From Patescibacteria group bacterium (GTDB lineage Bacteria; Patescibacteriota; WWE3; UBA101185; UBA10185), in assembly GCA_016926555.1 (NCBI GenBank), contig JAFGOI010000008.1:12821-76820 (forward strand): DNA of 64,000 bases. Reading direction: 5' to 3'. The notes below the pieces were generated by a model. That model was not told where the DNA came from, made no database searches, and was given only the letters and a program-made list of their open reading frames with translations. Below, piece by piece: positions 1 to 32,750 of this stretch. The stretch's first letter is position 1. The number at the start of each line of letters is the position of its first letter. A program made the position numbers and the translations under genes.

Positions 1-418
1 AAACAAACCCATGCGGAGAAACGGGAGATGTTTGACCTGTTGTCAAAGCATACAAACCATTATCATGAATTACAATTGTTATATCGTGATTTCTTCGACA
101 AGCGTGAATAAAATGATTGCCTCCTTCACCTAAACAATCCCCATCACCCGTAAACGCGAAAACATTTAGCTTGTGGTCTGATAACTTTATGCCTGTGGCA
201 ACTGGTATGGGCCTGCCATGCAGCCCTTCAAGAGAGGTAATTTTTGTAAAATTAACTATGTGCCCGTGACATCCTATTCCCGCGGCCAAAGCTGTGTTTG
301 TATTATCCCAGCCCTCTTGAACTGCTGCATTTTTAAACGCCGCCCATAAGGACATATTTCCGCAGCCTGGGCACCAATTTGGAGTGTATGGAGTTGCTAA
401 TTCGCTCAAAGTGGTCAT
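1..418 (-). CDS. 2-oxoacid:ferredoxin oxidoreductase beta subunit (TPP-binding). Partial: the gene starts at 418 and runs off the window edge.
   Basis: Minus-strand translation MTTLSELATPYTPNWCPGCGNMS...GIGCHG...FTGDGD matches the OFOR beta TPP-binding N-terminus. Its ATG overlaps the korA stop (ATGA). Confidence 0.8.
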   Translation of the reverse strand, partial: MTTLSELATPYTPNWCPGCGNMSLWAAFKNAAVQEGWDNTNTALAAGIGCHGHIVNFTKITSLEGLHGRPIPVATGIKLSDHKLNVFAFTGDGDCLGEGGNHFIHACRRNHDITIVIHDNGLYALTTGQTSPVSPHGFV

Positions 419-2151
419 TTTTTACCTCCTAATATACTATCAATTTTTTGCTGTATTTCATGAGTGTAAAACGGTCTTCCGTCATATTTAAGCAGTTTGT
501 CTTTTACCTCAATACCTGTTTTTTCTTTTACTAAACCTAAAAATTGCGCGCTAAAACTCGCTTCAACCCCTAAAACGTGCTTCGACTCCTCAAGCACTTT
601 CTTTATCTGCCCAGTTGGAAACGGATTCATCCAGGTTATATGCAAATAATTAACATTCTCATGCTCTTTTATGGCCTGCAGAATGCTGCCTTTATTGCTT
701 CCCCAAGAAATTATTGTCACATCAGCATCTTTTGATCCATACAGAGTTTGTGGAGGCATATCAGTACTAGCGCATGTCTCCAACTTTTTCATTCTCTTAT
801 TCATTTGGCTATTTCTGTTATCAATTTCCTCGGAAGAATAGCCGTATTCGTTATGTTCGTCAGAATTCGCGATAAAGAAATTACCAACACCCGGAATACT
901 TCGTATGGAAATACCGTCTGCAGATAGTTCGTACCTTTTATAATCTTCTATTTTATCCACTGAAAACTTACCGCGGTCTACAACATACTCTTTTGAATCA
1001 AAAATCGGATAACTCTGATCGTTTTCGCATATGTTTTTATCTATCAGTAAAACAACGGTTGTTTGGTACCTTTCGGCCAAATTAAACGCTGCTAAAGTTA
1101 AATAATAAGCTTCCTGAGGATCTCCCGCGGCAAGAACAATACGCGGGAAATCACCTTGATGCATATGTAAAACCATTCTAAGGTCGCCCTGCTCGCTCCA
1201 AGTGGGAAGACCCGTTCCCGGGCCGCCGCGCATACCCTCAACAATAACGAGCGGAACTTCAGCTATACCTGCAAGACCGTAACCTTCCCCCATTAAACAG
1301 AAACCTCCTCCAGACGTCGCCGTCATAGCTCTCGCACCTGCAAATGATGCGCCGATAGACATGTTTATCGCTGAAATTTCATCTTCCGGTTGTTTGTATA
1401 CATAACCGTATTCTTCTTGATACTTTGCTAACACGTGCAAAATGTTAGAAATCGGAGACATGGGATAAATAGCGGCAAATTGGAGACCCGCTCGGATAGC
1501 TCCCAAAGCAACGGCCTCATTTCCGTTTATAAGTATTCTATCTTTTGTTTCATTTAAACTTTGAACATGTTTTAGTTTATCTGTAAGATCATCTTTATAT
1601 TTATCCAACACAAAACTGTATCCTTTTTCCGCCGCATCCTGGTTTAATTTAATTACGTTTTCGCCTTTATCTTCAAACTCTTCTTTTAATAGGACCTTCA
1701 ACACTTCTATGTCACCACTCTTTAACCCAATAAGCGCCCCTAAAGCAACCGTGTTTATATGCAGTTCAGATCCCCCGCATTCTCTAGCGAGATCTAAAAG
1801 GGGCAGGGGATACTTAGAAACATTTTCCGGCAATTTGGATAGGTCCAGATTTGTTTCGCTGTCGTACAAAACAGATGAGTTTTCTTTATACTCATCCAAA
1901 TGAAAATCAATCGAATCCTGATTAAGCGCAATCAGAAAATCTATTTTATAGCTGGGACCGGTCACTTCATCTAACGAGATATTTATCTGCATAACATTGT
2001 GGCCCCCGCGTATAATTGACGGATATTCTATATAATTAAAAACATTGTACCCGGATCTTTTAGCAAATTTAGCCAGCAAAATCCCCGAGGATTTTATTCC
2101 TTGCCCCGCTTGACCGGCAATTTTTATTGTTAGTACCTCTTGCTTGCTCAT
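415..2151 (-). CDS. 2-oxoacid:ferredoxin oxidoreductase alpha subunit (fused gamma-alpha type, KorA/PorA-like).
   Basis: 578 aa. N-terminus IKIAGQAGQGIKSSGILLAKF is gamma-domain-like, followed by the alpha domain. Operon arrangement with the downstream beta subunit. Ends in TGA. Confidence 0.85.
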   Translation of the reverse strand: MSKQEVLTIKIAGQAGQGIKSSGILLAKFAKRSGYNVFNYIEYPSIIRGGHNVMQINISLDEVTGPSYKIDFLIALNQDSIDFHLDEYKENSSVLYDSETNLDLSKLPENVSKYPLPLLDLARECGGSELHINTVALGALIGLKSGDIEVLKVLLKEEFEDKGENVIKLNQDAAEKGYSFVLDKYKDDLTDKLKHVQSLNETKDRILINGNEAVALGAIRAGLQFAAIYPMSPISNILHVLAKYQEEYGYVYKQPEDEISAINMSIGASFAGARAMTATSGGGFCLMGEGYGLAGIAEVPLVIVEGMRGGPGTGLPTWSEQGDLRMVLHMHQGDFPRIVLAAGDPQEAYYLTLAAFNLAERYQTTVVLLIDKNICENDQSYPIFDSKEYVVDRGKFSVDKIEDYKRYELSADGISIRSIPGVGNFFIANSDEHNEYGYSSEEIDNRNSQMNKRMKKLETCASTDMPPQTLYGSKDADVTIISWGSNKGSILQAIKEHENVNYLHITWMNPFPTGQIKKVLEESKHVLGVEASFSAQFLGLVKEKTGIEVKDKLLKYDGRPFYTHEIQQKIDSILGGKK

Positions 2152-5027
2152 ACAAATTTCTCCGTATAGATTCTTTCTTCAGGACAACCATTCGCTATTA
2201 ATACATCCGTGGCATCCTTAACCATATACTTGTTTCCGCATAAATACGCGGAAACCTTTGAAGCATCTTTATAATCTTTCTTTACTAGATCAGTAATGAA
2301 ACCCTGATGGCCTTTCCATCCCTCATTCGGTTTAAAAACGGCTATATCATATTTAAAGTTCGGATACTCATTCTTTAAGGAATCCAGATAATCCGTCCAA
2401 AAAATGTCCTCGACAAAATTCAGACCTATATATAAATGTATCGTACCTTTAAATTTATGTTCTTTTAGCGCGGATTCAATCATACACCTAAGTGGGCTGA
2501 CACCCGATCCTGTACCCAAAAACAAAAGTGTTTCTGCGTCGTCCTCCGGTTTATACGTAAACACACCAAAGGGTCCTAAAAATGTTATTTTGTCGTTTAC
2601 TTTGAGATTTTCAAAAAACTTTGAACCGGGCCCTCCAGGTTTTGTATCTACCAATAAAGAAAACTGTTTTGTATCCACATGAGAAGCCACCGAATAACAC
2701 CTTATTGTGTTTTCGGCCACTTTAACACTTATATACTGGCCCGGATTAAATTCAAATGGTTCATCCGGAATAAAATCATATGAGTGATATGTTGTTGCTA
2801 AGACAGCGTGCCGTGAAGTCTTTGCCGTTAAAAACTGCGGTTTTTTAGCTTTCTGCGCATGTTCACCCTCTTTTAGTATAACTTTTGTGTCTACAGCCCA
2901 AACAGTATCTAAAGTAACTATAACAGGGTTAATCTCAATAGATTCCGCCTCCGGTATCATTTCGGACAGTTTAGATACTTTCACTATCAATTCGCATAGT
3001 TCGTTTAATTCATAAGGAGGACTTCCTCTGTAACCTTTGAGCAAAGTGTAAACTTTAGAATTTTCGACGAGTTTTTTTGCCGTTGGAATATCTATAGGCA
3101 GTAAATGAAGATTTCTATCTACTATCAATTCGGCCAAACTTCCCCCGGCGCCAAATAACAGCACACTCCCGAATACCGGATCCCTTTTGAACCCGACTAT
3201 AACCTCTATTCCGTTTAATATCTCCTTCTGAATCTGGATTTTTATACCCGATTTAATATTTTCGTCAAATTCTTCTATCCTCTTTTGAAGCTTATCCCAA
3301 GAGGACTCCAATTGCGCTTCGTTCATAATATCAACAATAACCCCGCCTAATTCTTTCTTGTGCACAATCTGATTTGACGAAAGCTTTAAAACCATCGGCC
3401 AGCCATTTATTTTTGAAAACTCTAAAGCCTCCTCAAACGTGTTTACTATTGATGTTGGCGGTGTTAGAAGCCCAAGAGAAACTGATATATTGTTAGAAGC
3501 TATTGCATCTAACGCTTTTACTTTTTTCGAGAGCGCTTCATTTACTATTTTTTTCATTCTTGTATCATCTGCTTCTATTTCAAAAGCCTCACTTATACTT
3601 ATCTTTTGCTTTTCAATCTGCATCTGTCTAAATCTCCACATTGAAGAAATAGCTTTTACAGCGCGTTCCGGATACCTGAAATTAGGTATTTTGTGTTTAT
3701 TTAAAATCTCTTCCCCTTTGTTAACATGGCTTCCCCCTATAAAAGAGCAGAAAATGGGTTTCTTATATTCCGCCGATAAATTACCTATGTACTCAGCGGT
3801 TTGTTCTATTTGGGTCATTAATTGAGGGGTTAATATAAAAATCAGCGCGTCAACTTTATCCGTTTCCAAAATTACTTCCGCCGCTTTCAGATATCTATCC
3901 GCTAAAGCATCACCCAAAACATCGACCGGATTTACTATATTGGCAGTTCTTGGAAGTATCTCTGCTAGTTTATTCCTTGTTTCATCCGATAACTCAGGCA
4001 GCTGCAGACCTTCAAGAACTGCGGCATCTGTGCTGATTACGGCAGGACCTCCTGCGTTTGAAATTATGTGCACATTTGGTCCCTCCGGTAGATTTTCCCA
4101 CGCAAACGCCTTTGAAAGGTCGAATAAATCCTCGAGTGTGTCGCATCTAAAAACACCGGCTTGTTTAACTACTACATCCATTACTGCGTCTTCCCCCGCG
4201 ATTGAACCTGTGTGAGATTGCATAGCTGTTGAAGATTCCCGAGTTTTTCCAGGTTTTAGAAGCAAAATAGGATCTCTATTAGATATTTCGCTGCAGATCT
4301 GTAAGAATTTCTCGCCGTCAGTTATCGATTCCAGATACATTCCAATGGGCGAGACACTGGATAGGCCATCAAATTCTGTATCACTACTTGAAACAGCATT
4401 ATTTTTATCTGGCGCGCGCATAAAATACTCTAGAGCATCATTCTCGCTTAGCACAGCTTTGTTTCCCAAGGTAATAAACTCACTATAGCCAATTCCATTT
4501 GTTTCACACCAATCAAATATACTCGAAGCTAATGCCCCTGACTGAGAAATAAACCTTAGGTTTCCCGTTTTTTCATAAATGTCCGAGAAAGTAGTATTTA
4601 AAGAGCATTTGTTATTTACAAATCCAAGACAATTTGGTCCTAAAACGTTTAAATCGTACTTCTTTGAGATCTCAACTAATTCATTTTCCAGTTCCAGCCC
4701 CGCTTCACCAATCTCTTTAAATCCTGCGGCAAGCACAACAACATTTTTTATTCCCTTTTCTCCAATCTCTTTAAGAACTCCGTTCACGGCACTCGCGGGA
4801 ACTGCTAAAACAGCTAAATCGGGTATTTCAGCAATCTCAGACACATTTTTATAGCACTTTAAGTTCAATATGCTTTCAGAAGAAGGATTTACCGGGTATA
4901 CATTTCCCTTAAAATTGGATTCTGCTATATTTTTAAGTACTATGTGCCCAATCTTTTGAGTATTACTTGACGCGCCTACAACAGCAACAGATTTTGGACA
5001 GAAAAAATCTTCTAGATTACTGGGCAT
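2148..5027 (-). CDS. Acetyl-CoA synthetase (ADP-forming, fused alpha/beta) with a C-terminal ferredoxin-NADP reductase-like FAD/NAD(P)-binding domain (about 2151-2830).
   Basis: N-terminal CoA-binding region VAVVGAS..GPNCLGF plus ATP-grasp regions. The C-terminal ~225 aa carry RxYS (RCYSVAS), GGxxS (GGPGSKF), GTGxxP (GTGSGVSP) and a CG (YLCGNKYM) motif typical of FNR-like reductases. Overlaps the korA start by 4 bp. Confidence 0.75.
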   Translation of the reverse strand: MPSNLEDFFCPKSVAVVGASSNTQKIGHIVLKNIAESNFKGNVYPVNPSSESILNLKCYKNVSEIAEIPDLAVLAVPASAVNGVLKEIGEKGIKNVVVLAAGFKEIGEAGLELENELVEISKKYDLNVLGPNCLGFVNNKCSLNTTFSDIYEKTGNLRFISQSGALASSIFDWCETNGIGYSEFITLGNKAVLSENDALEYFMRAPDKNNAVSSSDTEFDGLSSVSPIGMYLESITDGEKFLQICSEISNRDPILLLKPGKTRESSTAMQSHTGSIAGEDAVMDVVVKQAGVFRCDTLEDLFDLSKAFAWENLPEGPNVHIISNAGGPAVISTDAAVLEGLQLPELSDETRNKLAEILPRTANIVNPVDVLGDALADRYLKAAEVILETDKVDALIFILTPQLMTQIEQTAEYIGNLSAEYKKPIFCSFIGGSHVNKGEEILNKHKIPNFRYPERAVKAISSMWRFRQMQIEKQKISISEAFEIEADDTRMKKIVNEALSKKVKALDAIASNNISVSLGLLTPPTSIVNTFEEALEFSKINGWPMVLKLSSNQIVHKKELGGVIVDIMNEAQLESSWDKLQKRIEEFDENIKSGIKIQIQKEILNGIEVIVGFKRDPVFGSVLLFGAGGSLAELIVDRNLHLLPIDIPTAKKLVENSKVYTLLKGYRGSPPYELNELCELIVKVSKLSEMIPEAESIEINPVIVTLDTVWAVDTKVILKEGEHAQKAKKPQFLTAKTSRHAVLATTYHSYDFIPDEPFEFNPGQYISVKVAENTIRCYSVASHVDTKQFSLLVDTKPGGPGSKFFENLKVNDKITFLGPFGVFTYKPEDDAETLLFLGTGSGVSPLRCMIESALKEHKFKGTIHLYIGLNFVEDIFWTDYLDSLKNEYPNFKYDIAVFKPNEGWKGHQGFITDLVKKDYKDASKVSAYLCGNKYMVKDATDVLIANGCPEERIYTEKFV

Positions 5028-5133: not shown

Positions 5134-5478
5134 TTGTATATGAATATAGTATCCGGCATCGATATGGTTTATATTGAAGAATTCGGGGAACAGCTTAAAT
5201 TATCCGAAGATAATTTTGTAAAAAGATGTTTCACGACAAAGGAGCAGAATATAAAGGAAACCAAGACGTTAGCGGGAATATTTGCAGTAAAAGAATCCGT
5301 AATAAAAGCTTATTCTCTGGCACCGGGTAGTTGGTTGAATATAGAGGTTGATAACAGGAACAGCGGAAAACCTTATGTAACAATTAAAAATATAGACGAA
5401 AAGGTCTTATCTCAAGACGTGAGTATATCTCACTCTAAAGATTACGTAATAGCTTCATATACTGCTTTGATAGAATAA
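5134..5478 (+). CDS. acpS: Holo-[acyl-carrier-protein] synthase (4'-phosphopantetheinyl transferase, AcpS type).
   Basis: 114 aa. GIDMVYIEEF...FAVKESVIKA...ISISHSKDYVIA matches the AcpS pattern. Confidence 0.7.
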   Translation: MYMNIVSGIDMVYIEEFGEQLKLSEDNFVKRCFTTKEQNIKETKTLAGIFAVKESVIKAYSLAPGSWLNIEVDNRNSGKPYVTIKNIDEKVLSQDVSISHSKDYVIASYTALIE

Positions 5479-5482
5479 AATA

Positions 5483-7975
5483 ATGTACAAAGATTTTACA
5501 CACTTTCTTAAAGATTTGACGGATCGTTTCGATGACAAAACAGCCCTTTATATAAGACGTATTTTTAAGATAGAAAGAATTACATACAGACAATTACACG
5601 AAAATGTAAAGAAACTCGGAATATTTTTTAAAAATAGCGACGTAAAAGCGGGGGATAGAGTGCTCATATGGGGCCCTAATATACCTGAATGGGTAGTTGC
5701 TCTTTTAGGCTGTTTTTACCATGGAGTAATTGTAGTACCAGTAAATGTACACACATCGCAGGCGACATTCGAAAAATACTTCGCCGAAACGGAGGCCAAG
5801 TTAATTTTCATATCAAAGTCTATCCCCAAACTACCCGAACAATACAAAGAAAAAATCTTTTATCTGGAAGATCTTTTGAACATTATTAGAGATTTAGATG
5901 AACAAGAGAGTTTTGACCAAAATGAAGATGAAGTAATAGAAATAGTATACACATCTGGCACAACGGGAGAACCGAAAGGTCTAATGATTACACATAGAAA
6001 CATTTTTTCAGAACTTGATAGCCTGTGGGATATTGCTCCCAGAGATCCGGATTATAGACTGTTATCACTACTGCCTTTAAGTCATGTTATGGAGCAGGTA
6101 ATAGGTTTAATTCTCCCACTATCTCTCGGCGGAACTATATATTATTTACCAAAAATAAACACTGTGACTATAAGCAAAGCACTTAATAAATATAAAATAT
6201 CTTATCTTGGCGTAGTTCCTCAAATGCTTAGGATTCTTTTAGATTCCATAGAAAACGAGGTTGAAAAACAGGGAATCGAAAAAGAATTTAAGAAAATGTT
6301 GGAAATATCAGAAAGACTACCTTTCTTTTTGAGGAAATACATTTTTAGAAAAGTTCACAGAAAATTTGGCGGCCACTTAAAAATGATGATGTGCGGAAGC
6401 GCCCCTTTGCCGCCAAAACTCGGTCAGACATGGGAAAATATGGGTTTTAAAGTTATTGAGGGATATGGCGCGTCTGAAACTTCCGCTGCCGCAACGTGCA
6501 ATACAGTAAATAAGCGAGTTTTTGGAACAGTAGGAAAACCCATGAGGTGTAACGATGTAAAAATAATAGAAGACGGGGAAGTGGTAATAAAAGGATCTAA
6601 TGTCACTCCAGGTTACTTTAAAAATCCTGAAAAAACTAAAGAATCTTTTACAGAAGATGGCTATTTTAAAACAGGCGATATTGGTTATTTTGATGAAAAC
6701 GGATACTTACGGCTTTCGGGAAGGACAAAATTTAGAATTGTTACACCCGCAGGCGAAAAAGTGTATCCGGAAGATCTAGAAGTCAAACTAAACTCACATG
6801 GCGATATTTGGGATAACTGTGTAATAGGTATACCTGTAGAGGGCGGGGAAGAGGTCTATGCGGTTGTAATAACAAAAGAAGGTGCTAATTTAGATAAAGT
6901 TATTGAAGAAGTAAATAATAATTTAGAAGCGCATCAGAAAATAAGACAATATAGTAAATGGGAGGAAAAGGATTTTCCAAGACTACACACATTAAAAGTT
7001 GATAGAAAAGCCGTAAAAGAGAGAATTTTAGAGAACAAACCCCAAACGCCAGAAAATATCCCGAATAAAAAAGCTGATAACGATAATGAATTGAAAGATA
7101 TCATTTCATTAGTATGTAAAGTAAACCCCGCAGAGATAGGTAAAAATAAGGTACTTACCAAGGATTTTCACCTGGATTCCTTAAGGAGAGTCGCGCTCGT
7201 TTCCTTAATAGAAGAAGAATACGGGGTCATTGTAGAAGAAAGTGATATCACGCAAGATACCACTGTAAGTGATCTAGAAAAACTCATTAAAATTGGCAAA
7301 AAACGTGTAGATTTTACGCTACCGGCAGAGTGGCCTCTTAATCCTTTTTTGTTTAAAATTAGGGATTTTCTAAGAAATTTGATAGTAACACCAATACAAA
7401 ACTATTACATTACCGATTTAAAAGTAGAGGGTATTGAAAACCTTAAAGGCTTAAAACCACCTTTAATAATAGTATTTAACCATATAGGTCACTACGACCA
7501 TGCCCTAATATATAGAATATTGCCAAAAGAACTAAGATTAAAACTCACTGGTTTGGCTGACAAAGAGCTGTATAGAACTAAATTTAAAGCATTTTTACAG
7601 TATTTCTTCGGTGGTGCTTATCCCGTGGATAAATATGGAGGCCCGGTTAGAAAGTCCCTTGAATTGGCTACAGATCTATTAGATAGGGGATTCGTTTTAT
7701 TACTATCACCAGAAGGGGAAATAAGTTATAGCGAAAAAATGCTTGAATTCAAAAAAGGCGTTGGCATGCTGGCGGTTGAAACCGGCGTTCCTGTTTTACC
7801 TATAAGAATAAAGGGTTACCACAAGATTTATAAAAAGAGACACGAATGGCCGTTTTTGCCGCCGGATGGAAGGGGTGAGGTTACTGTTGTTATTGGAAAA
7901 TCACGTACTTTTGAAAAAGGTACTACTTACGATAAATCTACTAAAATCATAAGAGATATACTCGAAGAATTGTAG
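5483..7975 (+). CDS. Tri-domain fusion: acyl-AMP/acyl-CoA ligase (AMP-binding), acyl carrier domain, and 1-acylglycerol-3-phosphate acyltransferase (PlsC-like). Aas-like lysophospholipid acylation enzyme.
   Basis: AMP-binding motif YTSGTTGEPKG in the N-terminal half. Carrier-domain motif DFHLDSL with the serine at 7178-7180. PlsC HX4D motif NHIGHYDH at 7481-7498 and a PEGE motif in the C-terminal part. Confidence 0.8.
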   Translation: MYKDFTHFLKDLTDRFDDKTALYIRRIFKIERITYRQLHENVKKLGIFFKNSDVKAGDRVLIWGPNIPEWVVALLGCFYHGVIVVPVNVHTSQATFEKYFAETEAKLIFISKSIPKLPEQYKEKIFYLEDLLNIIRDLDEQESFDQNEDEVIEIVYTSGTTGEPKGLMITHRNIFSELDSLWDIAPRDPDYRLLSLLPLSHVMEQVIGLILPLSLGGTIYYLPKINTVTISKALNKYKISYLGVVPQMLRILLDSIENEVEKQGIEKEFKKMLEISERLPFFLRKYIFRKVHRKFGGHLKMMMCGSAPLPPKLGQTWENMGFKVIEGYGASETSAAATCNTVNKRVFGTVGKPMRCNDVKIIEDGEVVIKGSNVTPGYFKNPEKTKESFTEDGYFKTGDIGYFDENGYLRLSGRTKFRIVTPAGEKVYPEDLEVKLNSHGDIWDNCVIGIPVEGGEEVYAVVITKEGANLDKVIEEVNNNLEAHQKIRQYSKWEEKDFPRLHTLKVDRKAVKERILENKPQTPENIPNKKADNDNELKDIISLVCKVNPAEIGKNKVLTKDFHLDSLRRVALVSLIEEEYGVIVEESDITQDTTVSDLEKLIKIGKKRVDFTLPAEWPLNPFLFKIRDFLRNLIVTPIQNYYITDLKVEGIENLKGLKPPLIIVFNHIGHYDHALIYRILPKELRLKLTGLADKELYRTKFKAFLQYFFGGAYPVDKYGGPVRKSLELATDLLDRGFVLLLSPEGEISYSEKMLEFKKGVGMLAVETGVPVLPIRIKGYHKIYKKRHEWPFLPPDGRGEVTVVIGKSRTFEKGTTYDKSTKIIRDILEEL

Positions 7976-8015: not shown

Positions 8016-8044
8016 TTGACTATCGCAGTAACCTATAGTATAAT
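8016..8044 (+). promoter_or_regulatory. Near-consensus sigma70-type promoter (TTGACT-17 bp-TATAAT), preceded by a small palindrome ATCAGAT-T-ATCTGAT at 8001-8015.
   Basis: Read directly: TTGACT at 8016-8021, a 17-nt spacer, then TATAAT at 8039-8044. AGGAGG lies 7 nt before the ATG at 8091. Confidence 0.5.
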
Positions 8045-8090
8045 ATGCCCGTTGACATTTAATATCCACATAACAAAACAGGAGGTAAAA

Positions 8091-8588
8091 ATGACTGCAG
8101 TAATAAGAAGAGGGCTAGTAGGTTTGGGTTTCATTTTTATAGGGGCCTTAATGGGCATGTACTTAGTGCTACAGACGCTGGGGACGTCGTCGTATATCCC
8201 GGTGTCCCAGGGACACCACGGGACACATGACGTCGGTACCGATCCAGCGGCTACGGCCAGGTTTAACCACCTGGTCAATAGCTGGAACGTAGCAAATTTC
8301 AGTAATCCTGAGGATCCAAACAAGATCAACAGGATAGTTTGCTACGTTGTGAAAGAAGGTTCCAAGATAGCCAGGTACGTGGCCTGGCACGGAACCAGAG
8401 TTTCCTCACTGGGCACCCAGTATGGAAACTTAAACTGGTGGCAGCTCGGTGAGGAGGGGTGGGAAGCCTATTCATATGACGACATGAATTTTAGTCGTCT
8501 GGGACTCCCAAAAGATCTTGATCCCCAGCGATTTTCCTGGGAGAACGTTAATTGTGACAGTATGTATCCTCCGGGGGTTTCTCCCTAG
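8091..8588 (+). CDS. Hypothetical signal-anchored or secreted protein (165 aa) with strongly atypical GC content (about 55-60%).
   Basis: Strong Shine-Dalgarno AGGAGG before the ATG at 8091. An N-terminal hydrophobic segment is followed by a soluble domain. GC sampled at 8161-8220 is 60% and at 8341-8400 is 55%, against about 33% in flanking genes. The track ORF starting at 8016 uses TTG inside the promoter and is rejected. Confidence 0.55.
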   Translation: MTAVIRRGLVGLGFIFIGALMGMYLVLQTLGTSSYIPVSQGHHGTHDVGTDPAATARFNHLVNSWNVANFSNPEDPNKINRIVCYVVKEGSKIARYVAWHGTRVSSLGTQYGNLNWWQLGEEGWEAYSYDDMNFSRLGLPKDLDPQRFSWENVNCDSMYPPGVSP

Positions 8589-21352: not shown

Positions 21353-22615
21353 GTGAAAACACCCTATATACTAAATATTAAAAATGGATTAACTCTATGT
21401 ATTATTGAAAATGAGTATTCGGAGTCTGTTACTCTACACCTAAAAGGCCACGCGGGAAGTAATTATGAGGGCAGAGATGAAATAGGAGCAGCTCACTTTA
21501 TAGAACACTATCTATTAAACCTGCCGCAAAATGAAAAGATAACTAGACAAAAGGACGCTATTTTAAAAGGTGGGGGAAAGATAATTGGAGTTACAAGCCG
21601 AGACGATGTTCTCTTTATGGTCAAGGTTCTTAAAGAGTACTTTGATACAGCCCTTCTTTACATACTAACTATCCTGAATAACGATATAACTTATAACGAA
21701 GCCGCCTTTGAGAGCACACGCAATGCAGTTTTGCAGGAGATCGAGGCTAATAATTTAAAATTATCAAGAATACTAAGTAATTCCACATATAGCATAATGT
21801 TTCCAAAACAAAGAATAGGACTGCCTAATACCGGCAAAACGGAACATGCTAAAAAATTGACATTCTCCAGTCTGAAATCTTTTCATGCAGGAAATTACTC
21901 TTACGACAATTTTACACTTGTGATATCCGGAAATATTAAAAAGAAACAAGTTTTAGAATTTCTGAATGGATTTGACTTTCCAACGGGCTCTCAAGAACTA
22001 CAGAATAAAAACACAATTGACTTAAAAAACAGCCATAACTATAAACTAAACACCTTAATCAAACCCGGATTTCTACCCTGCCACATAAAAATAGACTTCC
22101 CAAGCCTCAAATATTCGGATGACAAATCTTACATACTTAACCTCTTAGCACTAATACTTAAACTTAGCTTGAATAGAGCCCTTAAAGAAAACCTACCATA
22201 CATCAACGTAGAATGTTTTAACTACAGCTCGGGTACATTTGGCATATTTTCTGTTTATGCAACATTAGAAGGGAACAATTTGATCTCTTACTTAAACATA
22301 CTAAGAAACGTAATAGATGGTATTAATAGTATTAGCCCAGAATGCCTTTATGACTGTAAGAAAGTATATAAATCCAATTTGCTATTTTCTTTAGAAAAAA
22401 CCTCATCTATAGCGGAATACTATTCAAACTGCATTACTCACGGGAACAAAAATCAGAACCACTCATATGAACTGCGCTATATAGACAAGCTAATTAGAGA
22501 AGAGCTGATCCGCACAACAAACAACCTGTTTAAATACAAACCGAAAGTAACGTTACTGCTAAACAGCCCGATATCTGGAAAAACCGAGAACAAAATAAAA
22601 CAAATTCTAGGATGA
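21353..22615 (+). CDS. M16 (pitrilysin/insulinase) family metallopeptidase-like protein.
   Basis: Inverted zinc motif HFIEH (HxxEH) near residue 47. GTG start. Confidence 0.55.
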   Translation: MKTPYILNIKNGLTLCIIENEYSESVTLHLKGHAGSNYEGRDEIGAAHFIEHYLLNLPQNEKITRQKDAILKGGGKIIGVTSRDDVLFMVKVLKEYFDTALLYILTILNNDITYNEAAFESTRNAVLQEIEANNLKLSRILSNSTYSIMFPKQRIGLPNTGKTEHAKKLTFSSLKSFHAGNYSYDNFTLVISGNIKKKQVLEFLNGFDFPTGSQELQNKNTIDLKNSHNYKLNTLIKPGFLPCHIKIDFPSLKYSDDKSYILNLLALILKLSLNRALKENLPYINVECFNYSSGTFGIFSVYATLEGNNLISYLNILRNVIDGINSISPECLYDCKKVYKSNLLFSLEKTSSIAEYYSNCITHGNKNQNHSYELRYIDKLIREELIRTTNNLFKYKPKVTLLLNSPISGKTENKIKQILG

Positions 22616-23524
22616 AAGATATACTTTTGTAATCCTGATAAATTCCAAGACTCTAATTACATTGAATATTACGCTTGTAATCCACATCGGATATTTATCC
22701 ATATAATGTTTTCTATAGAACAATCTCATTGCTTCGGTAGATGCCCTCGCCATTTTTACTTTCGTCTCAATAGGAATCCTTCTAATATTCTTATTTTCCC
22801 CTAATATCTTCTTTGATTGTTTTCTTCCTATTGAAGCACCTTTGTAATGAAGTACCTCAATTTGAGGCAAATAATATATTTTATATCCTTTTTCTTTTAC
22901 TCTATAACAAAAATCTATATCTTCACCAAACACAAAGTAATCCTCATCCCATTTAATACCATCCTCATATATCTTCCCTTTAGTAAACATAAAATGTGAG
23001 ATGCATGCATCAATCTCATGGGGTTTACTTAGGTTTTTCCATCCCTGAAAATACTGATTGAACAATTCTGACTTAAAAAATAATTTATCCAAACTCAGAA
23101 AATGTGTCATCGCCGCCAAAGGTGTTGGGAAACCTCTATGCGCATCCCAATCGATAGAACCATCTCTCAAAACCAATTTGGGAGATAATATTCCTGCACC
23201 ATCTGAAATCTCCATGAAACCAAATAGTTTCTTAATAGCATCTTTTGTAGGAAACGCATCCGTACCCAAATAACAGATGTAATCCGCCTTGGAAATATTT
23301 AAAGCCTTGTTATGTGCAGAAGCCAATCCCTCGTTTTTACTCCTTATAAATCGGATTTTTCCTTTCTGACTATATTCTTCACAAATTTCTCTGGAACCAT
23401 CGCTGGAATCATTGTCAATAACGATAATTTCCATATTCGGCCATATATCAGCCAGATTATCCACACACTTCTTCAGCAATTCTGCCGTATTATAATTAAC
23501 TATCACAAAATCAATCTTTTTCAT
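22607..23524 (-). CDS. Family 2 glycosyltransferase (GT-A fold).
   Basis: IDFVIVNYNTAELL...IIVIDNDSSDGS matches GT2 N-terminal motifs. Confidence 0.8.
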   Translation of the reverse strand: MKKIDFVIVNYNTAELLKKCVDNLADIWPNMEIIVIDNDSSDGSREICEEYSQKGKIRFIRSKNEGLASAHNKALNISKADYICYLGTDAFPTKDAIKKLFGFMEISDGAGILSPKLVLRDGSIDWDAHRGFPTPLAAMTHFLSLDKLFFKSELFNQYFQGWKNLSKPHEIDACISHFMFTKGKIYEDGIKWDEDYFVFGEDIDFCYRVKEKGYKIYYLPQIEVLHYKGASIGRKQSKKILGENKNIRRIPIETKVKMARASTEAMRLFYRKHYMDKYPMWITSVIFNVIRVLEFIRITKVYLSS

Positions 23525-23536
23525 ATTTTCACTAGT

Positions 23537-25033
23537 CTATTCCCCTGGGCACTTTAATACAAATACGGTTGAGAAATCTTTTGGACCGAATTCTTCCTCT
23601 ACAACCTCGCACCCCGGAAAGTAATTCAACCTTTTTCTATCTGTATCCATTGAGTAAACAACATAGTCCACATCACCATCAAAATCCCTTTTTATATTAC
23701 CCTTAAAATAATAGGAAAATGACTCAATATTATTCGGAACATATACAGTGATATCTCTACCTTTACCATTTAAATATATTGCCGCATTCGCAAAATATTC
23801 GCCGCTATTATCGTAAAATCCGTTTTCAAGAGCTGTTTTCGTGCCTCCTAAAACACCTGAGTAGTACGCGGAATAAACCGGGTGATATTTTTCCACGGCT
23901 ATAAGAAACACCATCATAGACAGAAAAACCGGCAATCCAGGTTTCATAAGGTAATTCGTAAAACATATAGAGATTGTTAGAATTATCGAAGGTAAAAACA
24001 CTATGGAATACCTATCAATTTTCTGGGATGTTATAGTTAGGAACAAGAAGCTCAATAATATATTTGCGAGTACAATCAGAATATTAAAATCTTTTGTCTT
24101 CCTTATTTCCCATAACGAAACTAAAAAAAGCGTTACAGTAACAAAAGAGTATTTATACAAAAAAACGGCGGGGTAATACAAAAAAGATGTTATACCGCTA
24201 TAATCACTTTTTCTTATTTCGCCATTTATCGATCCTGTAATACCGCGGAAAATATTACTAAACACATAGAACGAATCTGTCCACATTGCAGGGAAAAATA
24301 AATAAAAAGTAAGAATTACCAACAATGGAAAAGAAATCAATATTAGCACATTTCTATGCTCCTTAAACTTCAGCAGCAACACTAAAAAAATAGCCGGAAT
24401 TACTATTACGGCACTTATTTTTGTAAGCAGAGCTAACGCCAACAGCACTGCCGACAGATTTAAAGCTCTTTGGTCATAACATTTCGACCAATACATAACA
24501 AACAGCAGAGATGTAAACATCAAATTTATCTCCAGAGAAGTCAGATGAAACCATCTATTAATGCCTATATAGTAAGGCTCTATGGATATGAGCATCACGT
24601 AAATAAGCGCGGTTTTTACTGAAAACAACCTTCCTATCAGCTCATATTGAATTGTCACAAGAGCAAGGAGAGATAATATAACAAACAGACGCGTAATTAG
24701 GTGTATAACTGGATAGAAATCAGCATTTTCAAGTGTTTTGGGTTCCATATTGCGTATTAGCTGGTACCTGAATAAAATTTCTTCCGAGATCGCGCCAATC
24801 CACATTATAGTCACACCTGGGTGATAACTTTGGTATGTCTCTTTGAAATCGCCAGATTTTAACGACTCCAAGAATCCTATAGACCTTCTGTGCCATCTCG
24901 CTGCATCTGAATTCGACATGTCGTATTTCAAGGATGTGGTTCTGGGAAGTAGAAACAACAGCGATATGATGATATATATTTCCTTTCCCCTCAAGAGAAT
25001 AAGTAAGCTTTTAATTTTACTCATTAACACCAT
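23537..25033 (-). CDS. GT-C fold membrane glycosyltransferase (GT39/PMT-ArnT-like). Paralog of 40718-42226.
   Basis: More than 10 predicted transmembrane helices. N-terminal region similar to the 40718 protein (HPGVTIMW versus KPGITVHW). Confidence 0.55.
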   Translation of the reverse strand: MVLMSKIKSLLILLRGKEIYIIISLLFLLPRTTSLKYDMSNSDAARWHRRSIGFLESLKSGDFKETYQSYHPGVTIMWIGAISEEILFRYQLIRNMEPKTLENADFYPVIHLITRLFVILSLLALVTIQYELIGRLFSVKTALIYVMLISIEPYYIGINRWFHLTSLEINLMFTSLLFVMYWSKCYDQRALNLSAVLLALALLTKISAVIVIPAIFLVLLLKFKEHRNVLILISFPLLVILTFYLFFPAMWTDSFYVFSNIFRGITGSINGEIRKSDYSGITSFLYYPAVFLYKYSFVTVTLFLVSLWEIRKTKDFNILIVLANILLSFLFLTITSQKIDRYSIVFLPSIILTISICFTNYLMKPGLPVFLSMMVFLIAVEKYHPVYSAYYSGVLGGTKTALENGFYDNSGEYFANAAIYLNGKGRDITVYVPNNIESFSYYFKGNIKRDFDGDVDYVVYSMDTDRKRLNYFPGCEVVEEEFGPKDFSTVFVLKCPGE

Positions 25034-25188
25034 ATTATAAAATTAGTTTCCGACCCAATATAATTCACACACCTGAAATTACAAAATCTAAGATATATTG
25101 CTGTCGAAATAATAACTGCAAGAAACGACTGCGTCTTCAAATTTTTAAGATTATATTTTATATTTCTCATTTTTACCCAAATATATAA

Positions 25189-26286
25189 TTATGGATGCCA
25201 AACATGAAAACCGTCTTTCCATTGAACCAAGTAAAAGTAAAAGAACAACCAATACCCGCAAAGCAATGCATAACATGCGACTTTGTTATTAAATTTAAAA
25301 CCGCACATAACCAAAAATGGAATTGCCCAAAGGATGTAAGTTCTATTAAATACCGGCGTAATTACATAGAAAGTAAGGAAAGAAACCGTAGCTAGAATAT
25401 ATTTGTCTATTCCCTTGAGCACAGTACCCAGCACAGACACGAGTATCCAAGGAGCTACTATGGATAAGAAACTATAAACTTTAAATGGAATTATTTGGAA
25501 AAACTCTATATTGTAGTAATAACTAATATAAAACAACAGCGGTCGCCCCTGAATAAATCTGTTTCCATGTATAAAAAAAGTTCCGTTTAACATAGTAACA
25601 AAGTCATTTAAATCAAATAAGAAAGGCAGAAAGAATAATAGCGAAACTAATAAACCTGATAGAAGAAACTTCATTTTATTTTCTGACCTTATTATAAAAA
25701 TAGGAAATAAAATAATCGGGAACGTCTTCACCAATACAGATAACGCATAAAATGTCCCCGAAAGCACACTATCTCTTTCGAGATATATTATTGCCAGTAG
25801 CGCCAATAGAGTAGGTAAAGGATCTATATACGTATATCCAGATCTCAGAAAAGAGTATGGATTAAAAAGCCATAAACAAACCCCCAAAAGTCTCTCAGTA
25901 TATTTTTTATCTTTAAGTAGGCGAAATATCAAAAATGCGACCCCAAAGTCAGCCAAGAGAATCGGTATCTTCCATAAAACTACATATGGAAGCTGAAATA
26001 ATAGACAGAATATATAAATGGAGCCGTATAAATACAATATACCAGGTAAATAAACAAAACCATGATTGCCGGGGTCATCCGGGTTCGAATAGGATTCTAT
26101 TGACCATAAGTAGGGATTTGTTCCTGAAAAAAGATCTGAGATCGCCCTTTCATATGCATATATATCCTTGCTTGTTTGACTAATATACAGAATTCTTTTC
26201 TTAAAAGCTAAAAATAGGAGAACAACATAAATTATAACTTTTATTATGCTGACAGCTTTGTATCTGTTGTTCATTACTTTATTCAA
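25189..26286 (-). CDS. GT-C fold membrane glycosyltransferase (DUF2029/GT87-like). Paralog of 39429-40622.
   Basis: Polytopic. Shared motifs with 39429-40622 (NPY..., ALSVLVKTFPIILFPIF versus ALSVTLKTFPIILISIF). Confidence 0.5.
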   Translation of the reverse strand: MNKVMNNRYKAVSIIKVIIYVVLLFLAFKKRILYISQTSKDIYAYERAISDLFSGTNPYLWSIESYSNPDDPGNHGFVYLPGILYLYGSIYIFCLLFQLPYVVLWKIPILLADFGVAFLIFRLLKDKKYTERLLGVCLWLFNPYSFLRSGYTYIDPLPTLLALLAIIYLERDSVLSGTFYALSVLVKTFPIILFPIFIIRSENKMKFLLSGLLVSLLFFLPFLFDLNDFVTMLNGTFFIHGNRFIQGRPLLFYISYYYNIEFFQIIPFKVYSFLSIVAPWILVSVLGTVLKGIDKYILATVSFLTFYVITPVFNRTYILWAIPFLVMCGFKFNNKVACYALLCGYWLFFYFYLVQWKDGFHVWHP

Positions 26287-27766: not shown

Positions 27767-27808
27767 TATTATTGAACCAAATTAATTATATGGGTATCAT
27801 CATATTTA

Positions 27809-28681: not shown

Positions 28682-28682
28682 C

Positions 28683-31924: not shown

Positions 31925-31952
31925 AATTCATTCAACACATGGTCACTTATTT

Positions 31953-32750
31953 ATGTCTTCTTCTTTAACCGAAAAAAACGAAAAATTTAAGGGATATAAA
32001 TATCAATATCTTGATTCCATAACCGGCGAACATATTATTTTGGCTATACACGGCTTGGCCGGAAGCAAGGAAAGCATGTCTGAATTAATTGAAACGAAGG
32101 ACAATTTCAGATACATATTTATAGACTTACCGGGCCATGGAAATTTGGAAACTCAAGGTATAACTTGTTTACTCGATTTCGCAAAGTATATCGAGTCATT
32201 TCTTACCTTTAAAAATATAAGCAGGATCGGGATAATAGGATTTTCTCTTGGCGGATTGGTCGCTTTAAAGACTATTCAGCTAATCGAAAGCTCTACCCAA
32301 ACGTATGGGATAATATGGGCTGCTCCTTTAAACCTTAAACACAACTTCCTTAGATTTAACTCTAAGCTTAGTATTTGGCTAACTAAAATATTGCCGATGT
32401 TCGTATACCGTAAACTTTATAAATCTTTTCTACCGGATCTGCTATTAAAAACGGGTGCAATATCTCTGTCAAAGCGGGAAAATGAAGCTCTCGGGCAGTA
32501 TGATAGCAAATTAATCAATAAAGCGCCTACCATATTTAAGGAAAAAACCTATACAAACGTTAAATCCCCACTCTTATATATTTTTGGTACAAATGATAGT
32601 TTAGTAAAAGAAAAATATCTTGATGAGTTACAGCTTACTAATGAACACCAGAAGATAGAAATAATAGAGAGTGGGGGACATTTTCCATCAAGAGAAGGTC
32701 TACATAGTGCTAACTTAGCTATGCAAAAGTTTTTTGGCTCGTATTTATAG
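31953..32750 (+). CDS. Alpha/beta-fold hydrolase.
   Basis: HGLAGS oxyanion region and nucleophile elbow GFSLGG. Confidence 0.7.
   Translation: MSSSLTEKNEKFKGYKYQYLDSITGEHIILAIHGLAGSKESMSELIETKDNFRYIFIDLPGHGNLETQGITCLLDFAKYIESFLTFKNISRIGIIGFSLGGLVALKTIQLIESSTQTYGIIWAAPLNLKHNFLRFNSKLSIWLTKILPMFVYRKLYKSFLPDLLLKTGAISLSKRENEALGQYDSKLINKAPTIFKEKTYTNVKSPLLYIFGTNDSLVKEKYLDELQLTNEHQKIEIIESGGHFPSREGLHSANLAMQKFFGSYL

What the first reader, a model, noticed from the sequence alone, without database searches (positions are those of the whole stretch)
5134..7975. acpS followed by a self-contained acyl-AMP ligase, carrier domain and PlsC acyltransferase fusion (Aas-like, domain order inverted with an embedded carrier)
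This single polypeptide combines fatty-acid activation (YTSGTTGEPKG), a phosphopantetheine carrier (DSL serine at 7178-7180) and a lysophospholipid acyltransferase (HX4D at 7481-7498). The gene for its activating PPTase (AcpS) lies immediately upstream. E. coli Aas has the opposite domain order and uses free ACP. This looks like a lipid-salvage machine for an organism lacking fatty-acid synthesis, which is typical of reduced symbionts.
Basis: partly seen in the sequence, partly recalled or inferred. Interest (0 to 1): 0.6.

Follow-up and report, generated by a model that had tools for sequence, protein, structure and literature searches.

The report
Self-contained fatty-acid-to-lipid acylating enzyme
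A Patescibacteria (CPR) bacterium encodes a two-gene operon whose large protein most likely activates a free fatty acid, holds it on its own built-in carrier and attaches it to a membrane-lipid precursor, which suggests how a cell without fatty-acid synthesis could rebuild scavenged lipids.

Summary
ORF 5483..7975 (830 aa) contains three domains that pass Pfam's cut-offs: an ANL adenylation domain, a phosphopantetheine carrier (Ser566) and a PlsC-type acyltransferase (H667x4D672). A 112-aa AcpS gene ends 4 nt upstream.

The window comes from a Patescibacteria genome. The architecture is not unique: hundreds of 50%-identity clusters share it, including Chloroflexota with large genomes. It matches the reductase-less "ElbD-like" proteins noted in the myxobacterial ether-lipid literature. 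None of these has a demonstrated acyltransferase activity.

Three things are specific to the CPR-like clade:
- acpS is linked to the fusion in 9 of 9 sampled loci and in 0 of about 40 other loci.
- In this genome the canonical acpP position holds a conserved ACP homologue whose attachment serine is replaced by Glu.
- The plsX/fab genes are absent from that locus.

AcpS therefore probably serves only the fusion's carrier.

The best reading is an Aas-like, ATP-driven re-acylation of a lysolipid (or LPA), independent of free ACP and acyl-CoA. The acceptor is unresolved, and the genome-wide absence of FAS II was not tested.

Verdict: a new member of a known kind, of moderate interest for CPR membrane biology.

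The parts
5140..5478 (+). acpS: Group-I (AcpS-type) 4'-phosphopantetheinyl transferase, 112 aa. The mechanical ORF starts at TTG 5134.
   Evidence: Pfam ACPS scores 48 bits, above the cut-off of 25. TIGR00556 scores 55.8, above 45.35. The GxD, FAxKExxxKA and SISH motifs are conserved in 9 loci. NCBI names it holo-ACP synthase, 112 aa.
5483..7975 (+). Fusion gene: adenylation domain, carrier and LPLAT acyltransferase. 830 aa plus the stop codon, starting 4 nt after the acpS stop.
   Evidence: The AF2 model has pLDDT 83.9 and pTM 0.73, with three folded domains.
5522..6619 (+). ANL-superfamily adenylation core (Pfam AMP-binding, aa 14-379), including the P-loop YTSGTTGEPKG at nt 5948-5980.
   Evidence: Pfam E 1.5e-74. 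T157, S158, G159, T161, P164 and G166 are invariant in alignment A1. Foldseek best matches are ATP-bound acyl-CoA synthetases, TMt up to 0.82-0.85.
6776..6997 (+). C-terminal subdomain of the adenylation domain (AMP-binding_C, aa 432-485) up to the invariant A10 lysine Lys505 (nt 6995-6997).
   Evidence: Pfam AMP-binding_C is weak at 20.5 bits. K505 is invariant in A1.
7037..7084 (+). Linker 1 (aa 519-534) between the adenylation and carrier domains, predicted to be flexible.
   Evidence: pLDDT is below 50 in the AF2 model, and the region varies in length in A1.
7088..7288 (+). Embedded acyl carrier domain (PP-binding, aa 536-602). The phosphopantetheine attachment residue Ser566 is at nt 7178-7180.
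   Evidence: Pfam scores 35.9 bits, above the cut-off of 20.8. Ser566 is invariant in 25 of 25 sequences. The carrier is present in 45 of 45 adenylation+LPLAT ORFs. AF2 predicts a four-helix bundle. AcpP-type NCBIfam models score about 32 bits, below their cut-offs.
7328..7408 (+). Amphipathic helix (aa 616-642) preceding the acyltransferase core. Proposed membrane-surface anchor, by analogy with the N-terminal helices of PlsC.
   Evidence: AF2 predicts helix 621-642. The hydrophobic moment is 0.47-0.49, about the 95th percentile for this protein, and there is no TM segment. R627 and F636 are at least 90% conserved in A1. The anchoring role is an inference.
7418..7972 (+). PlsC/LPLAT-type acyltransferase domain (Pfam aa 646-777; the fold runs to aa 830). 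Block I NHIGHYD at nt 7478-7498, block II YPVDK at 7619-7633, block III SPEGEIS from 7706, block IV VPVLP at 7787-7801.
   Evidence: Pfam E 8.3e-16. N666, P743 and G745 are invariant, and H667, D672 and E744 are at least 90% conserved. The profile matches T. maritima PlsC 5KYM at E 5.4e-17. The best NCBIfam model is NF006386, acyl-[ACP]--phospholipid O-acyltransferase.

Best explanation
acpS and the 830-aa gene form one operon that encodes a self-contained acyl-activation and acyl-transfer enzyme.

Proposed mechanism:
1. AcpS uses CoA to put a 4'-phosphopantetheine arm on Ser566 of the embedded carrier domain.
2. The N-terminal ANL domain adenylates a free, scavenged fatty acid with ATP. It then thioesterifies the fatty acid onto that arm in cis.
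3. The flexibly linked carrier delivers the acyl-thioester to the C-terminal PlsC/LPLAT domain (His667/Asp672 dyad). This domain sits at the cytoplasmic membrane surface and transfers the acyl group to a free hydroxyl of a glycerolipid acceptor. The acceptor is most likely a lysolipid, as with Aas.

Net reaction: fatty acid + ATP + monoacyl lipid gives diacyl lipid + AMP + PPi, with no need for free ACP, acyl-CoA or FAS II.

What is shown: the domain identities, conservation of the catalytic residues, the operon linkage and the phylogenetic pattern.

What is inferred: each chemical step, the fatty-acid substrate, the acceptor and the membrane association.
For: - All domains pass the curated thresholds, and the catalytic residues are invariant or nearly so across 25 homologues at 35-47% identity.
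- The carrier is present in 45 of 45 ORFs that have both catalytic domains.
- acpS is linked to the fusion gene in 9 of 9 low-GC, CPR-like loci: immediately upstream (-13 to +43 nt) in 8, and about 2 kb upstream behind an MFS and a hydrolase gene in L090. It is absent from about 40 other loci.
- In this genome the only free ACP homologue seen has Glu in place of the attachment Ser. This holds in all 12 family members. The homologue sits in the acpP position next to rnc, with no plsX/fab genes.
- The LPLAT domain scores best against Aas-type phospholipid acyltransferase models.
- The model shows three domains with flexible linkers.
- Lipid-related neighbours recur in relatives: DedA/VTT, orthologous alpha/beta-hydrolases, patatins and MFS transporters.
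- In ElbD, which has the same A-ACP-AT order, the ACS and ACP activities were shown in vitro (PMC9131029).
- CPR cells contain acyl-glycerolipids enriched in lysolipids but lack known lipid synthesis (PMC7242380).
Against: - No biochemical data exist for any reductase-less member. The AGPAT activity of ElbD was not detected in vitro.
- The chain-length specificity of the adenylation domain is unknown. The best solved sequence relatives include oxalate and malonyl-CoA ligases.
- The family also occurs in large-genome bacteria that surely have FAS II and free ACP, so salvage by FAS-less cells cannot be its general role.
- The window itself has no DedA, patatin or MFS gene and no orthologous hydrolase.
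- The MFS neighbours in relatives are not LplT and are not orthologous to each other.
- Only about 72 kb of the genome was inspected.
Confidence: 0.6

Rival explanations
1. The same chemistry, but the acceptor is lysophosphatidic acid (or glycerol-3-phosphate). The enzyme would then be the cell's PlsC/PlsB substitute, feeding de novo phosphatidic acid synthesis from scavenged fatty acids rather than repairing or remodelling lysolipids.
For: - The only solved relative of the transferase domain is a bona fide LPA acyltransferase, T. maritima PlsC (E 5.4e-17).
- TIGR00530 AGP_acyltrn scores almost as well as the Aas-type model (50.2 against 52.5 bits).
- Block III keeps E and S, and block II usually keeps a basic residue. 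These positions are implicated in glycerol-phosphate binding in PlsB, which I recall from memory and did not test here.
Against: - The block III Arg of FPEGTR is not conserved: the window has PEGEIS.
- No cdsA, pgsA, pssA or plsY was seen in the 72 kb inspected.
- The best family model is the phospholipid (Aas-type) transferase.
- The neighbours in relatives are lipases and phospholipases, which generate lysolipids and fatty acids.
Confidence: 0.2
2. The protein makes a specialised, non-bulk lipid or acylates a non-glycerolipid acceptor such as an aminolipid, a glycolipid, a lipoprotein or a cell-surface glycan. It would act as a stand-alone loading and off-loading module.
For: - The LPLAT superfamily includes OlsA/OlsF-type aminolipid acyltransferases; a weak OlsF hit was seen (E 0.038).
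- Some relatives have a glycosyltransferase directly downstream (L087, and L091 nearby).
- The window is rich in PMT_2, GT87 and GT2 glycosyltransferases.
- The adenylation-domain specificity is undetermined.
Against: - No NRPS, PKS or aminolipid genes lie next to the gene in any of the sampled loci.
- The glycosyltransferase neighbours are inconsistent between loci.
- The transferase scores far better against phospholipid and AGPAT models than against OlsF.
Confidence: 0.1
3. The protein is an ElbD-type ether-lipid enzyme. It would take part in alkyl-ether lipid formation, as the myxobacterial protein does.
For: It has the same A-ACP-AT domain order as the C-terminal three domains of ElbD. 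'ElbD homologues' are routinely read as ether-lipid potential in metagenome surveys.
Against: - The N-terminal FAR-like reductase domain, needed to reduce the tethered acyl group, is absent. The protein starts directly with the adenylation domain.
- No elbB (HAD) or elbE (NAD epimerase) neighbours are present in the window.
- CPR-enriched lipids reported so far were all acylglycerols.
- Pontiella has ElbD homologues but no ether lipids.
Confidence: 0.05
4. The embedded carrier is vestigial. The enzyme would work like classical Aas or FadD, making acyl-CoA or loading a free ACP that the transferase domain then uses.
For: The adenylation domain resembles acyl-CoA synthetases more than FAALs in sequence and predicted structure. 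One relative (L091) has a free PP-binding protein 4 kb away.
Against: - Ser566 is invariant, and the carrier is present in every family member examined.
- The tight acpS linkage in CPR points to a dedicated carrier substrate.
- The free ACP homologue of this genome lacks the attachment serine.
- The ACP domain of ElbD is functional in vitro.
Confidence: 0.05

Closest known systems
ElbD of Myxococcus xanthus (MXAN_1528, UniProt Q1DC43) and its reductase-less 'ElbD-like homologues' (Lorenzen et al. 2014, as summarised in PMC9131029)
   Same: It has the same order of acyl-activating (ACS/A) domain, embedded ACP and AGPAT-like acyltransferase in one polypeptide. In ElbD the ACS and ACP activities were shown in vitro. 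FAR-less homologues in other phyla have already been noted.
   Different: - The window protein has no N-terminal FAR1-like reductase domain, so it has no route to an aldehyde, alcohol or ether.
- It has no elbB, elbC or elbE neighbours.
- In CPR it is paired with acpS, which has not been reported for elb clusters.
- Direct sequence comparison with Q1DC43 could not be run here.
E. coli Aas (2-acylglycerophosphoethanolamine acyltransferase / acyl-ACP synthetase) with its partner LplT
   Same: Both are a single polypeptide that combines ANL fatty-acid activation with a PlsC-type lysophospholipid acyltransferase. Both use an acyl-thioester on a phosphopantetheine arm as the donor. Both are peripheral membrane enzymes without TM helices. 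The transferase domain here scores best against Aas-type NCBIfam models.
   Different: - The domain order is reversed: Aas has the transferase at 1-203 and the synthetase at 204-719.
- Aas has no embedded carrier and uses free holo-ACP.
- The Aas equivalog cut-offs are missed by a wide margin (21 of 886 and 190 of 1221 bits).
- There is no LplT next to the gene. The MFS neighbours in relatives are GPH/MelB-like, not LplT.
PlsC (1-acyl-sn-glycerol-3-phosphate acyltransferase; T. maritima structure 5KYM)
   Same: The C-terminal domain shares the LPLAT fold family, with the NHx4D, PEG and VPxxP blocks and a helix before the core.
   Different: - PlsC is a stand-alone protein of about 250 aa that uses free acyl-ACP or acyl-CoA.
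- The block III Arg (EGTR) is not conserved here.
- The TIGR00530 cut-off is not reached (50 against 103 bits).
FAAL-ACP or A-PCP loading didomains of PKS/NRPS and lipopeptide pathways
   Same: In both, an adenylation domain loads a carrier domain in cis, and the carrier is primed by a PPTase.
   Different: - The downstream partner here is a lipid acyltransferase, not a KS or C domain.
- The adenylation domain resembles acyl-CoA synthetases rather than FAALs.
- It is primed by a small AcpS-type PPTase rather than an Sfp-type one.

Membership tests
ANL adenylate-forming superfamily (PF00501) | Pfam gathering score reached; P-loop (A3) T/S-S-G-T-T-G-x-P-K-G; catalytic A10 lysine; two-subdomain fold | tested here: met
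   The protein scores 251.6 bits against a cut-off of 29.9. YTSGTTGEPKG lies at aa 156-166, and K505 is invariant. Foldseek TMt is about 0.8 to acyl-CoA synthetases.
Fatty acyl-AMP ligase (FAAL) subclass | FAAL-specific insertion that blocks CoA thioesterification; closest relatives are FAALs | tested here: inconclusive
   The top sequence and structure matches are acyl-CoA synthetases (MatB, MenE, FadD13, luciferase), and none is a FAAL. The insertion was not examined residue by residue.
Carrier protein, PP-binding (PF00550) | Pfam gathering score reached; conserved Ser at the start of helix 2; four-helix bundle | tested here: met
   The domain scores 35.9 bits against a cut-off of 20.8. Ser566 is invariant in 25 of 25 sequences, and an xS[LIVMF] motif is found in 42 of 45. 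AF2 predicts helices 536-545, 558-561, 566-580 and 595-604. Actual phosphopantetheinylation cannot be tested here.
LPLAT / PlsC acyltransferase (PF01553) | Pfam gathering score reached; block I NHx4D; block III PEG; block IV proline | tested here: met
   The domain scores 58.4 bits against a cut-off of 23. NHIGHYD, SPEGE and VPVLP are all present. N666, P743 and G745 are invariant. The profile matches 5KYM at E 5.4e-17.
PlsC sensu stricto (TIGR00530 AGP_acyltrn) | NCBIfam cut-off reached; block III FPEGTR arginine present | tested here: not met
   The score is 50.2 bits against a cut-off of 102.95. The window has PEGEIS, and the Arg is not conserved in the family.
Aas (bifunctional acyl-ACP synthetase / lysophospholipid acyltransferase) | LPLAT and ANL domains in one polypeptide | tested here: met
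Aas (bifunctional acyl-ACP synthetase / lysophospholipid acyltransferase) | Transferase N-terminal and synthetase C-terminal; no embedded carrier; uses free holo-ACP | tested here: not met
   The order here is A, then carrier, then AT. The Aas layout is taken from PMC11416262.
Aas (bifunctional acyl-ACP synthetase / lysophospholipid acyltransferase) | NCBIfam equivalog cut-offs reached (NF005959, NF006386, NF005291) | tested here: not met
   The full-length protein scores 190 of 1221 bits on NF006386 and 149 of 1349 on NF005291. The transferase domain alone scores 21 of 886 on NF005959.
Aas (bifunctional acyl-ACP synthetase / lysophospholipid acyltransferase) | Genetic or physical coupling to the LplT flippase | tested here: not met
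   There is no MFS gene in the window. The MFS neighbours in L090, L091 and L087 are GPH-like or generic, not LplT, and are not mutual orthologues.
Aas (bifunctional acyl-ACP synthetase / lysophospholipid acyltransferase) | Acylates 2-acyl or 1-acyl lysophospholipids | not testable with these tools
   This needs an enzyme assay.
ElbD-like multidomain lipid enzymes | A/ACS domain, embedded ACP and AGPAT-like AT in that order | tested here: met
   One search gives the architecture here. The ElbD architecture is taken from PMC9131029 and the 2026 bioRxiv paper.
ElbD-like multidomain lipid enzymes | N-terminal FAR1-like reductase domain | tested here: not met
   The AMP-binding domain starts at residue 14, and there is no NAD_binding_4 or reductase hit.
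ElbD-like multidomain lipid enzymes | elbB (HAD) and elbE (NAD-dependent epimerase) neighbours | tested here: not met
   The neighbours are ACD-FNR, PFOR, two unknown ORFs and a GH1 glycosidase.
ElbD-like multidomain lipid enzymes | Specific sequence relatedness to M. xanthus ElbD (Q1DC43) | not tested
AcpS-type (Group I) phosphopantetheinyl transferase | About 120 aa, single domain; Pfam and TIGR cut-offs reached; Mg-binding Asp, and Glu/Lys in the FAAKEAxxKA motif | tested here: met
   The protein is 112 aa. PF01648 scores 48 against 25, and TIGR00556 scores 55.8 against 45.35. GID, FAVKESVIKA and SISHS are conserved across 9 loci. The equivalog cut-offs for AcpS proper are not reached (49 against 124 bits), so it is a divergent member.

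The most novel reading that the evidence does not exclude
In many Patescibacteria the acpS-fusion operon is the sole surviving use of phosphopantetheine-carrier chemistry. The ancestral free ACP has been converted into a conserved, Ser-less (Glu-substituted) protein with some other role, and FAS II has been lost. This one enzyme would then be the missing step by which CPR cells turn scavenged lysolipids plus free fatty acids into bilayer-forming diacyl lipids. That would explain both their lysolipid-rich membranes and their dependence on hosts.
Probability: 0.3. Interest if true: 0.75.

Novelty: new member of a known kind. Interest (0 to 1): 0.5.

Why it matters
How CPR/Patescibacteria obtain and maintain fatty-acid-based membranes without lipid synthesis is an open question. 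Probst et al. [quoted passage not shown]

A conserved acpS-plus-fusion operon gives a concrete, testable candidate for the acylation step. It needs only ATP, a fatty acid and a monoacyl lipid.

It also matters for metagenome surveys. BLAST hits to ElbD are commonly read as ether-lipid potential, but reductase-less members such as this one probably make ester lipids.

The Ser-less ACP homologue in the acpP locus is a separate small puzzle. It may mark lineages that have abandoned FAS II.

Tried and rejected
- **Genome scan with a single query.** A genome-contig scan with the single protein returned only a distant Fusobacteriaceae adenylation-domain hit.
- **Metagenome scan with alignment A1.** It returned mostly high-GC soil relatives at about 30% identity. 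These served as a negative control for acpS linkage but showed no recurrent neighbours.
- **LplT-like neighbours.** I tested whether the MFS neighbours in relatives are LplT-like and rejected the idea. They are GPH/MelB-like or generic, and are not orthologous to each other.
- **The window's alpha/beta-hydrolase (31953..32750).** I tested whether it is the orthologue of the fusion-adjacent hydrolases and rejected it: 24-30% identity over a third of the length.
- **Other cluster genes.** No DedA, patatin, MFS or FabH homologue lies in the window.
- **AlphaFold database.** The PDB fold search of the full model returned only adenylation-domain matches.
- **AcpS homologue search.** It returned only the protein itself because of the word-index limit.
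- **Literature searches.** None found a description of this enzyme or of a Ser-less ACP in CPR.
- **Left-hand extension of the genome.** It added only the PFOR beta subunit.


Full report
**Observation.** The quoted motifs map to the quoted bases. YTSGTTGEPKG is at aa 156-166 (nt 5948-5980). The carrier DSL has Ser566 at nt 7178-7180. HIGHYD is at aa 667-672 (nt 7481-7498). Pfam supports every domain above its curated cut-off: AMP-binding at aa 14-379 (E 1.5e-74), PP-binding at aa 536-602 (35.9 bits against 20.8) and Acyltransferase PF01553 at aa 646-777 (58.4 bits against 23). There is also a weak AMP-binding_C match at aa 432-485. The upstream ORF is an AcpS-type PPTase. PF01648 scores 48 against 25, and TIGR00556 scores 55.8 against 45.35. 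Its real start is probably ATG 5140 (112 aa), judging from the homologue N-termini and from two independent gene calls.

**Source and surroundings.** The fusion protein is identical to an NCBI 'AMP-binding protein [Patescibacteria group bacterium]' on a 170-kb contig. Upstream and divergent from acpS are a PFOR gene and an ADP-forming acetyl-CoA synthetase fused to an FNR-like FAD/NAD module. Downstream are two ORFs without family matches. The first follows a near-consensus promoter-like site at 8016-8044, which suggests a separate transcription unit. Pfam annotation of about 55 window ORFs found no fab, plsX/Y/C or cdsA gene. Searches with E. coli AcpP and with the carrier domain found no free ACP in the window.

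**The family.** More than 4,700 proteins match at E<1e-10. The top 120 are almost all 820-870 aa with the same three Pfam domains, at 35-47% identity. They include Gottesmanbacteria, other Patescibacteria, Ktedonobacteria (8.9-Mb genome), Anaerolineales and Babeliales. A search with only the carrier plus transferase part against 1.84 billion cluster representatives gave 963 hits at E<=1e-10. The full-length hits match at positions of about 520-830, which is the same architecture. In a 25-sequence alignment, Ser566, the P-loop, Lys505 (A10), N666, P743 and G745 are invariant. H667, D672 and E744 are at least 90% conserved. Among 45 ORFs from fetched loci that carry both catalytic domains, all 45 have the carrier between them. 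Block I is NHx4D in 35 and NHx5D in 7, and block III is PEG in 41. The carrier is therefore an obligate, selected part of the enzyme.

**Structure.** AlphaFold2 with that alignment gives a confident model (pLDDT 83.9, pTM 0.73). It shows an ANL two-subdomain adenylation unit, a four-helix carrier and an alpha/beta LPLAT core preceded by a long helix (621-642). The domains are joined by two low-confidence linkers at 519-534 and 607-611. Foldseek against the PDB finds only acyl-CoA synthetases in the adenylate-forming state (MatB, MenE, luciferase, FadD13). Nothing in the PDB covers the whole chain. The pre-core helix is moderately amphipathic, and there is no TM segment. This fits a peripheral membrane enzyme like Aas or PlsC, but the fit is an inference.

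**What the transferase resembles.** On its own, the C-terminal domain scores best against NF006386, 'acyl-[ACP]--phospholipid O-acyltransferase' (Aas-type, 52.5 bits). TIGR00530 AGPAT follows narrowly at 50.2 bits, and all scores are below the cut-offs. Its only solved sequence relative is T. maritima PlsC 5KYM (E 5.4e-17). The Arg of the PlsC block III 'FPEGTRS' is not conserved; the window has 'SPEGEIS'. The acceptor is therefore a glycerolipid-type hydroxyl, but whether it is a lysophospholipid or LPA is not settled.

**Synteny.** acpS lies directly upstream of the fusion (-13 to +43 nt) in eight loci: the window, L002/L003, L004, L087, L088, L089 (Gottesmanbacteria), L091 and L092. In L090 the order is acpS, MFS, hydrolase, fusion. 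That makes 9 of 9 low-GC (35-51%) CPR-like loci. acpS is not nearby in Ktedonobacteria (L005) or in L006, nor in any of about 38 high-GC metagenome loci with the tri-domain gene. The AcpS catalytic motifs are intact in all nine loci. Other neighbours recur in the CPR-like loci. These are DedA/VTT-domain membrane proteins directly upstream of acpS (L087, L088 twice, L089), mutually orthologous alpha/beta-hydrolases (L002, L087, L088; 39-47% identity), two patatin-like phospholipases (L089), MFS transporters (L087, L090, L091) and a FabH-like gene (L088). These suggest lipid turnover. They are not present in the window, and the MFS proteins are neither LplT-like nor orthologous to one another. 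I treat them as soft support only.

**A Ser-less free ACP.** A contig identical to the window over 7,018 nt (L094) extends the view by about 7.9 kb. Its gene order is rpmF, nusB, a 78-aa ORF, rnc, rpsP, a KH-domain gene, trmD. This is the conserved neighbourhood in which Bacillus-type genomes carry plsX-fabD-fabG-acpA upstream of rnc (my own knowledge, not tested here). No plsX or fab gene is present here. The 78-aa ORF is an ACP homologue (phmmer against E. coli AcpP, E about 1e-6; Pfam PP-binding is sub-threshold at 14.6 bits). Its attachment site reads 'NIGEME' instead of 'ADSLDT', so Ser36 is replaced by Glu. The protein is on the same 170-kb contig as the fusion. Its 11 detectable relatives include a WWE3 protein annotated as 'acyl carrier protein', and all 12 family members share 'EDDLNIGEMEL'. 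The free ACP of this genome therefore very probably cannot be phosphopantetheinylated. That leaves the fusion's carrier as the likely, and perhaps only, AcpS substrate, and it gives local evidence that FAS II genes have been lost.

**Literature.**
[quoted passage not shown] It uses free holo-ACP and docks on the flippase LplT (PMC11416262).
- M. xanthus ElbD is a reductase-ACS-ACP-AGPAT protein. Its ACS and ACP activities were shown in vitro, but its acyltransferase activity was not detected. 'ElbD-like homologues' in other phyla 'almost all lack a FAR1 domain', and there are no lipid data for them (PMC9131029).
- For CPR, Probst et al. reported fatty-acid-based lipids enriched in lysolipids. 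[quoted passage not shown]
- I found no paper that describes this operon or a Ser-less ACP in CPR.

**Interpretation.** The most likely mechanism has three steps. AcpS primes Ser566. The ANL domain adenylates a scavenged fatty acid and loads it onto the tethered arm. The LPLAT domain then transfers it to a lysolipid at the membrane surface. In function this is Aas chemistry made independent of free ACP. In architecture it is ElbD without its reductase. The domain identities, residue conservation, operon linkage and phylogenetic pattern are shown. The substrate, the acceptor, membrane association and every catalytic step are inferred.

The main rival is the same enzyme acting on LPA or G3P as a substitute for PlsC. 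The other rivals are less likely for the reasons listed with each one: acylation of a specialised lipid, an ether-lipid role, or a vestigial carrier.

**Novelty and score.** The architecture is abundant in databases and was noted in 2014, so this is a new member of a known but biochemically unresolved kind. The new points are contextual: the strict acpS coupling in CPR-like lineages and its coincidence with a Ser-less ACP in a fab-less acpP locus. Together these give a testable candidate for how CPR bacteria acylate scavenged lipids. Interest is moderate (0.5). It would be higher if the CPR-wide pattern and the lysolipid activity were demonstrated.

Noticed in passing
L094:12862-13098 (same genome; equivalent to about 69.8-70.1 kb, roughly 6 kb beyond the right end of the window): A 78-aa ACP homologue sits in the canonical acpP position (rpmF-nusB-ORF-rnc-rpsP-KH-trmD), and its phosphopantetheine Ser is replaced by Glu ('NIGEME' for 'ADSLDT'). 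All 12 detectable family members, including a WWE3 'acyl carrier protein', share EDDLNIGEMEL. No plsX or fab genes are at the locus. Its function is unknown.
   Followed up: partly
window 2148-5027 (-), with 415-2151 (-): A 959-aa ADP-forming acetyl-CoA synthetase (CoA_binding, Succ_CoA_lig and ATP-grasp_5 domains) is fused at its C-terminus to an FNR-like FAD_binding_6/NAD_binding_1 module. It overlaps the stop of a PFOR gene by 4 nt and is divergent from acpS. The fusion of an ACD with a ferredoxin-reductase-like domain is unusual.
   Followed up: no
window 8016-8588 (+): A near-consensus sigma-70-like site (TTGACT-17-TATAAT, 11 of 12 matches) lies at 8016-8044, exactly at the mechanical TTG start of the downstream ORF. 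The real start is probably ATG 8091, which gives a small protein with one strongly hydrophobic segment. The ORF has no family match, and no relative was found among the neighbours compared in the related loci.
   Followed up: partly
window 31849-33020: An alpha/beta-hydrolase gene (31953..32750; Abhydrolase_1/Hydrolase_4) lies between tRNA-Gly (31849-31924) and the tRNA-Arg and tRNA-Leu genes (32812-33020). It is not orthologous to the hydrolases that flank the fusion gene in relatives.
   Followed up: partly
window 22607-31078 and 39429-42226: There is a dense set of membrane glycosyltransferases (GT2, three PMT_2/ArnT-like genes and a GT87) interspersed with large ORFs that have no family match. 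This suggests an extensive surface-glycan or lipid-linked glycosylation system.
   Followed up: no
L089, L002 (proteins P0013, P0018) and 7 of 45 family ORFs: A subclade of the tri-domain family has a one-residue insertion in block I of the transferase (NHPNPPSD, that is NHx5D rather than NHx4D), and its Pfam Acyltransferase scores are only 'weak'. This may be a diverged acceptor or mechanism.
   Followed up: no
L088:7998-9029 (-): A FabH-like beta-ketoacyl-ACP synthase III (232 bits against a cut-off of 249) lies two genes downstream of the acpS-fusion pair in a low-GC, CPR-like contig. Some of these lineages may therefore keep parts of FAS II.
   Followed up: no
L091:1410-1709 (+): A free 99-aa PP-binding protein with 'AES' at the attachment site lies next to a Polyketide_cyc2 gene and 4 kb upstream of an MFS-acpS-fusion cluster. 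In that genome AcpS may have a second substrate.
   Followed up: no
L087, L088, L089 (directly upstream of acpS): DedA/VTT-domain membrane proteins directly precede acpS in three CPR loci, with two copies in L088. The gene order is VTT, acpS, fusion. This hints at a link to lipid flipping or transport, but no such gene is present in the window.
   Followed up: partly
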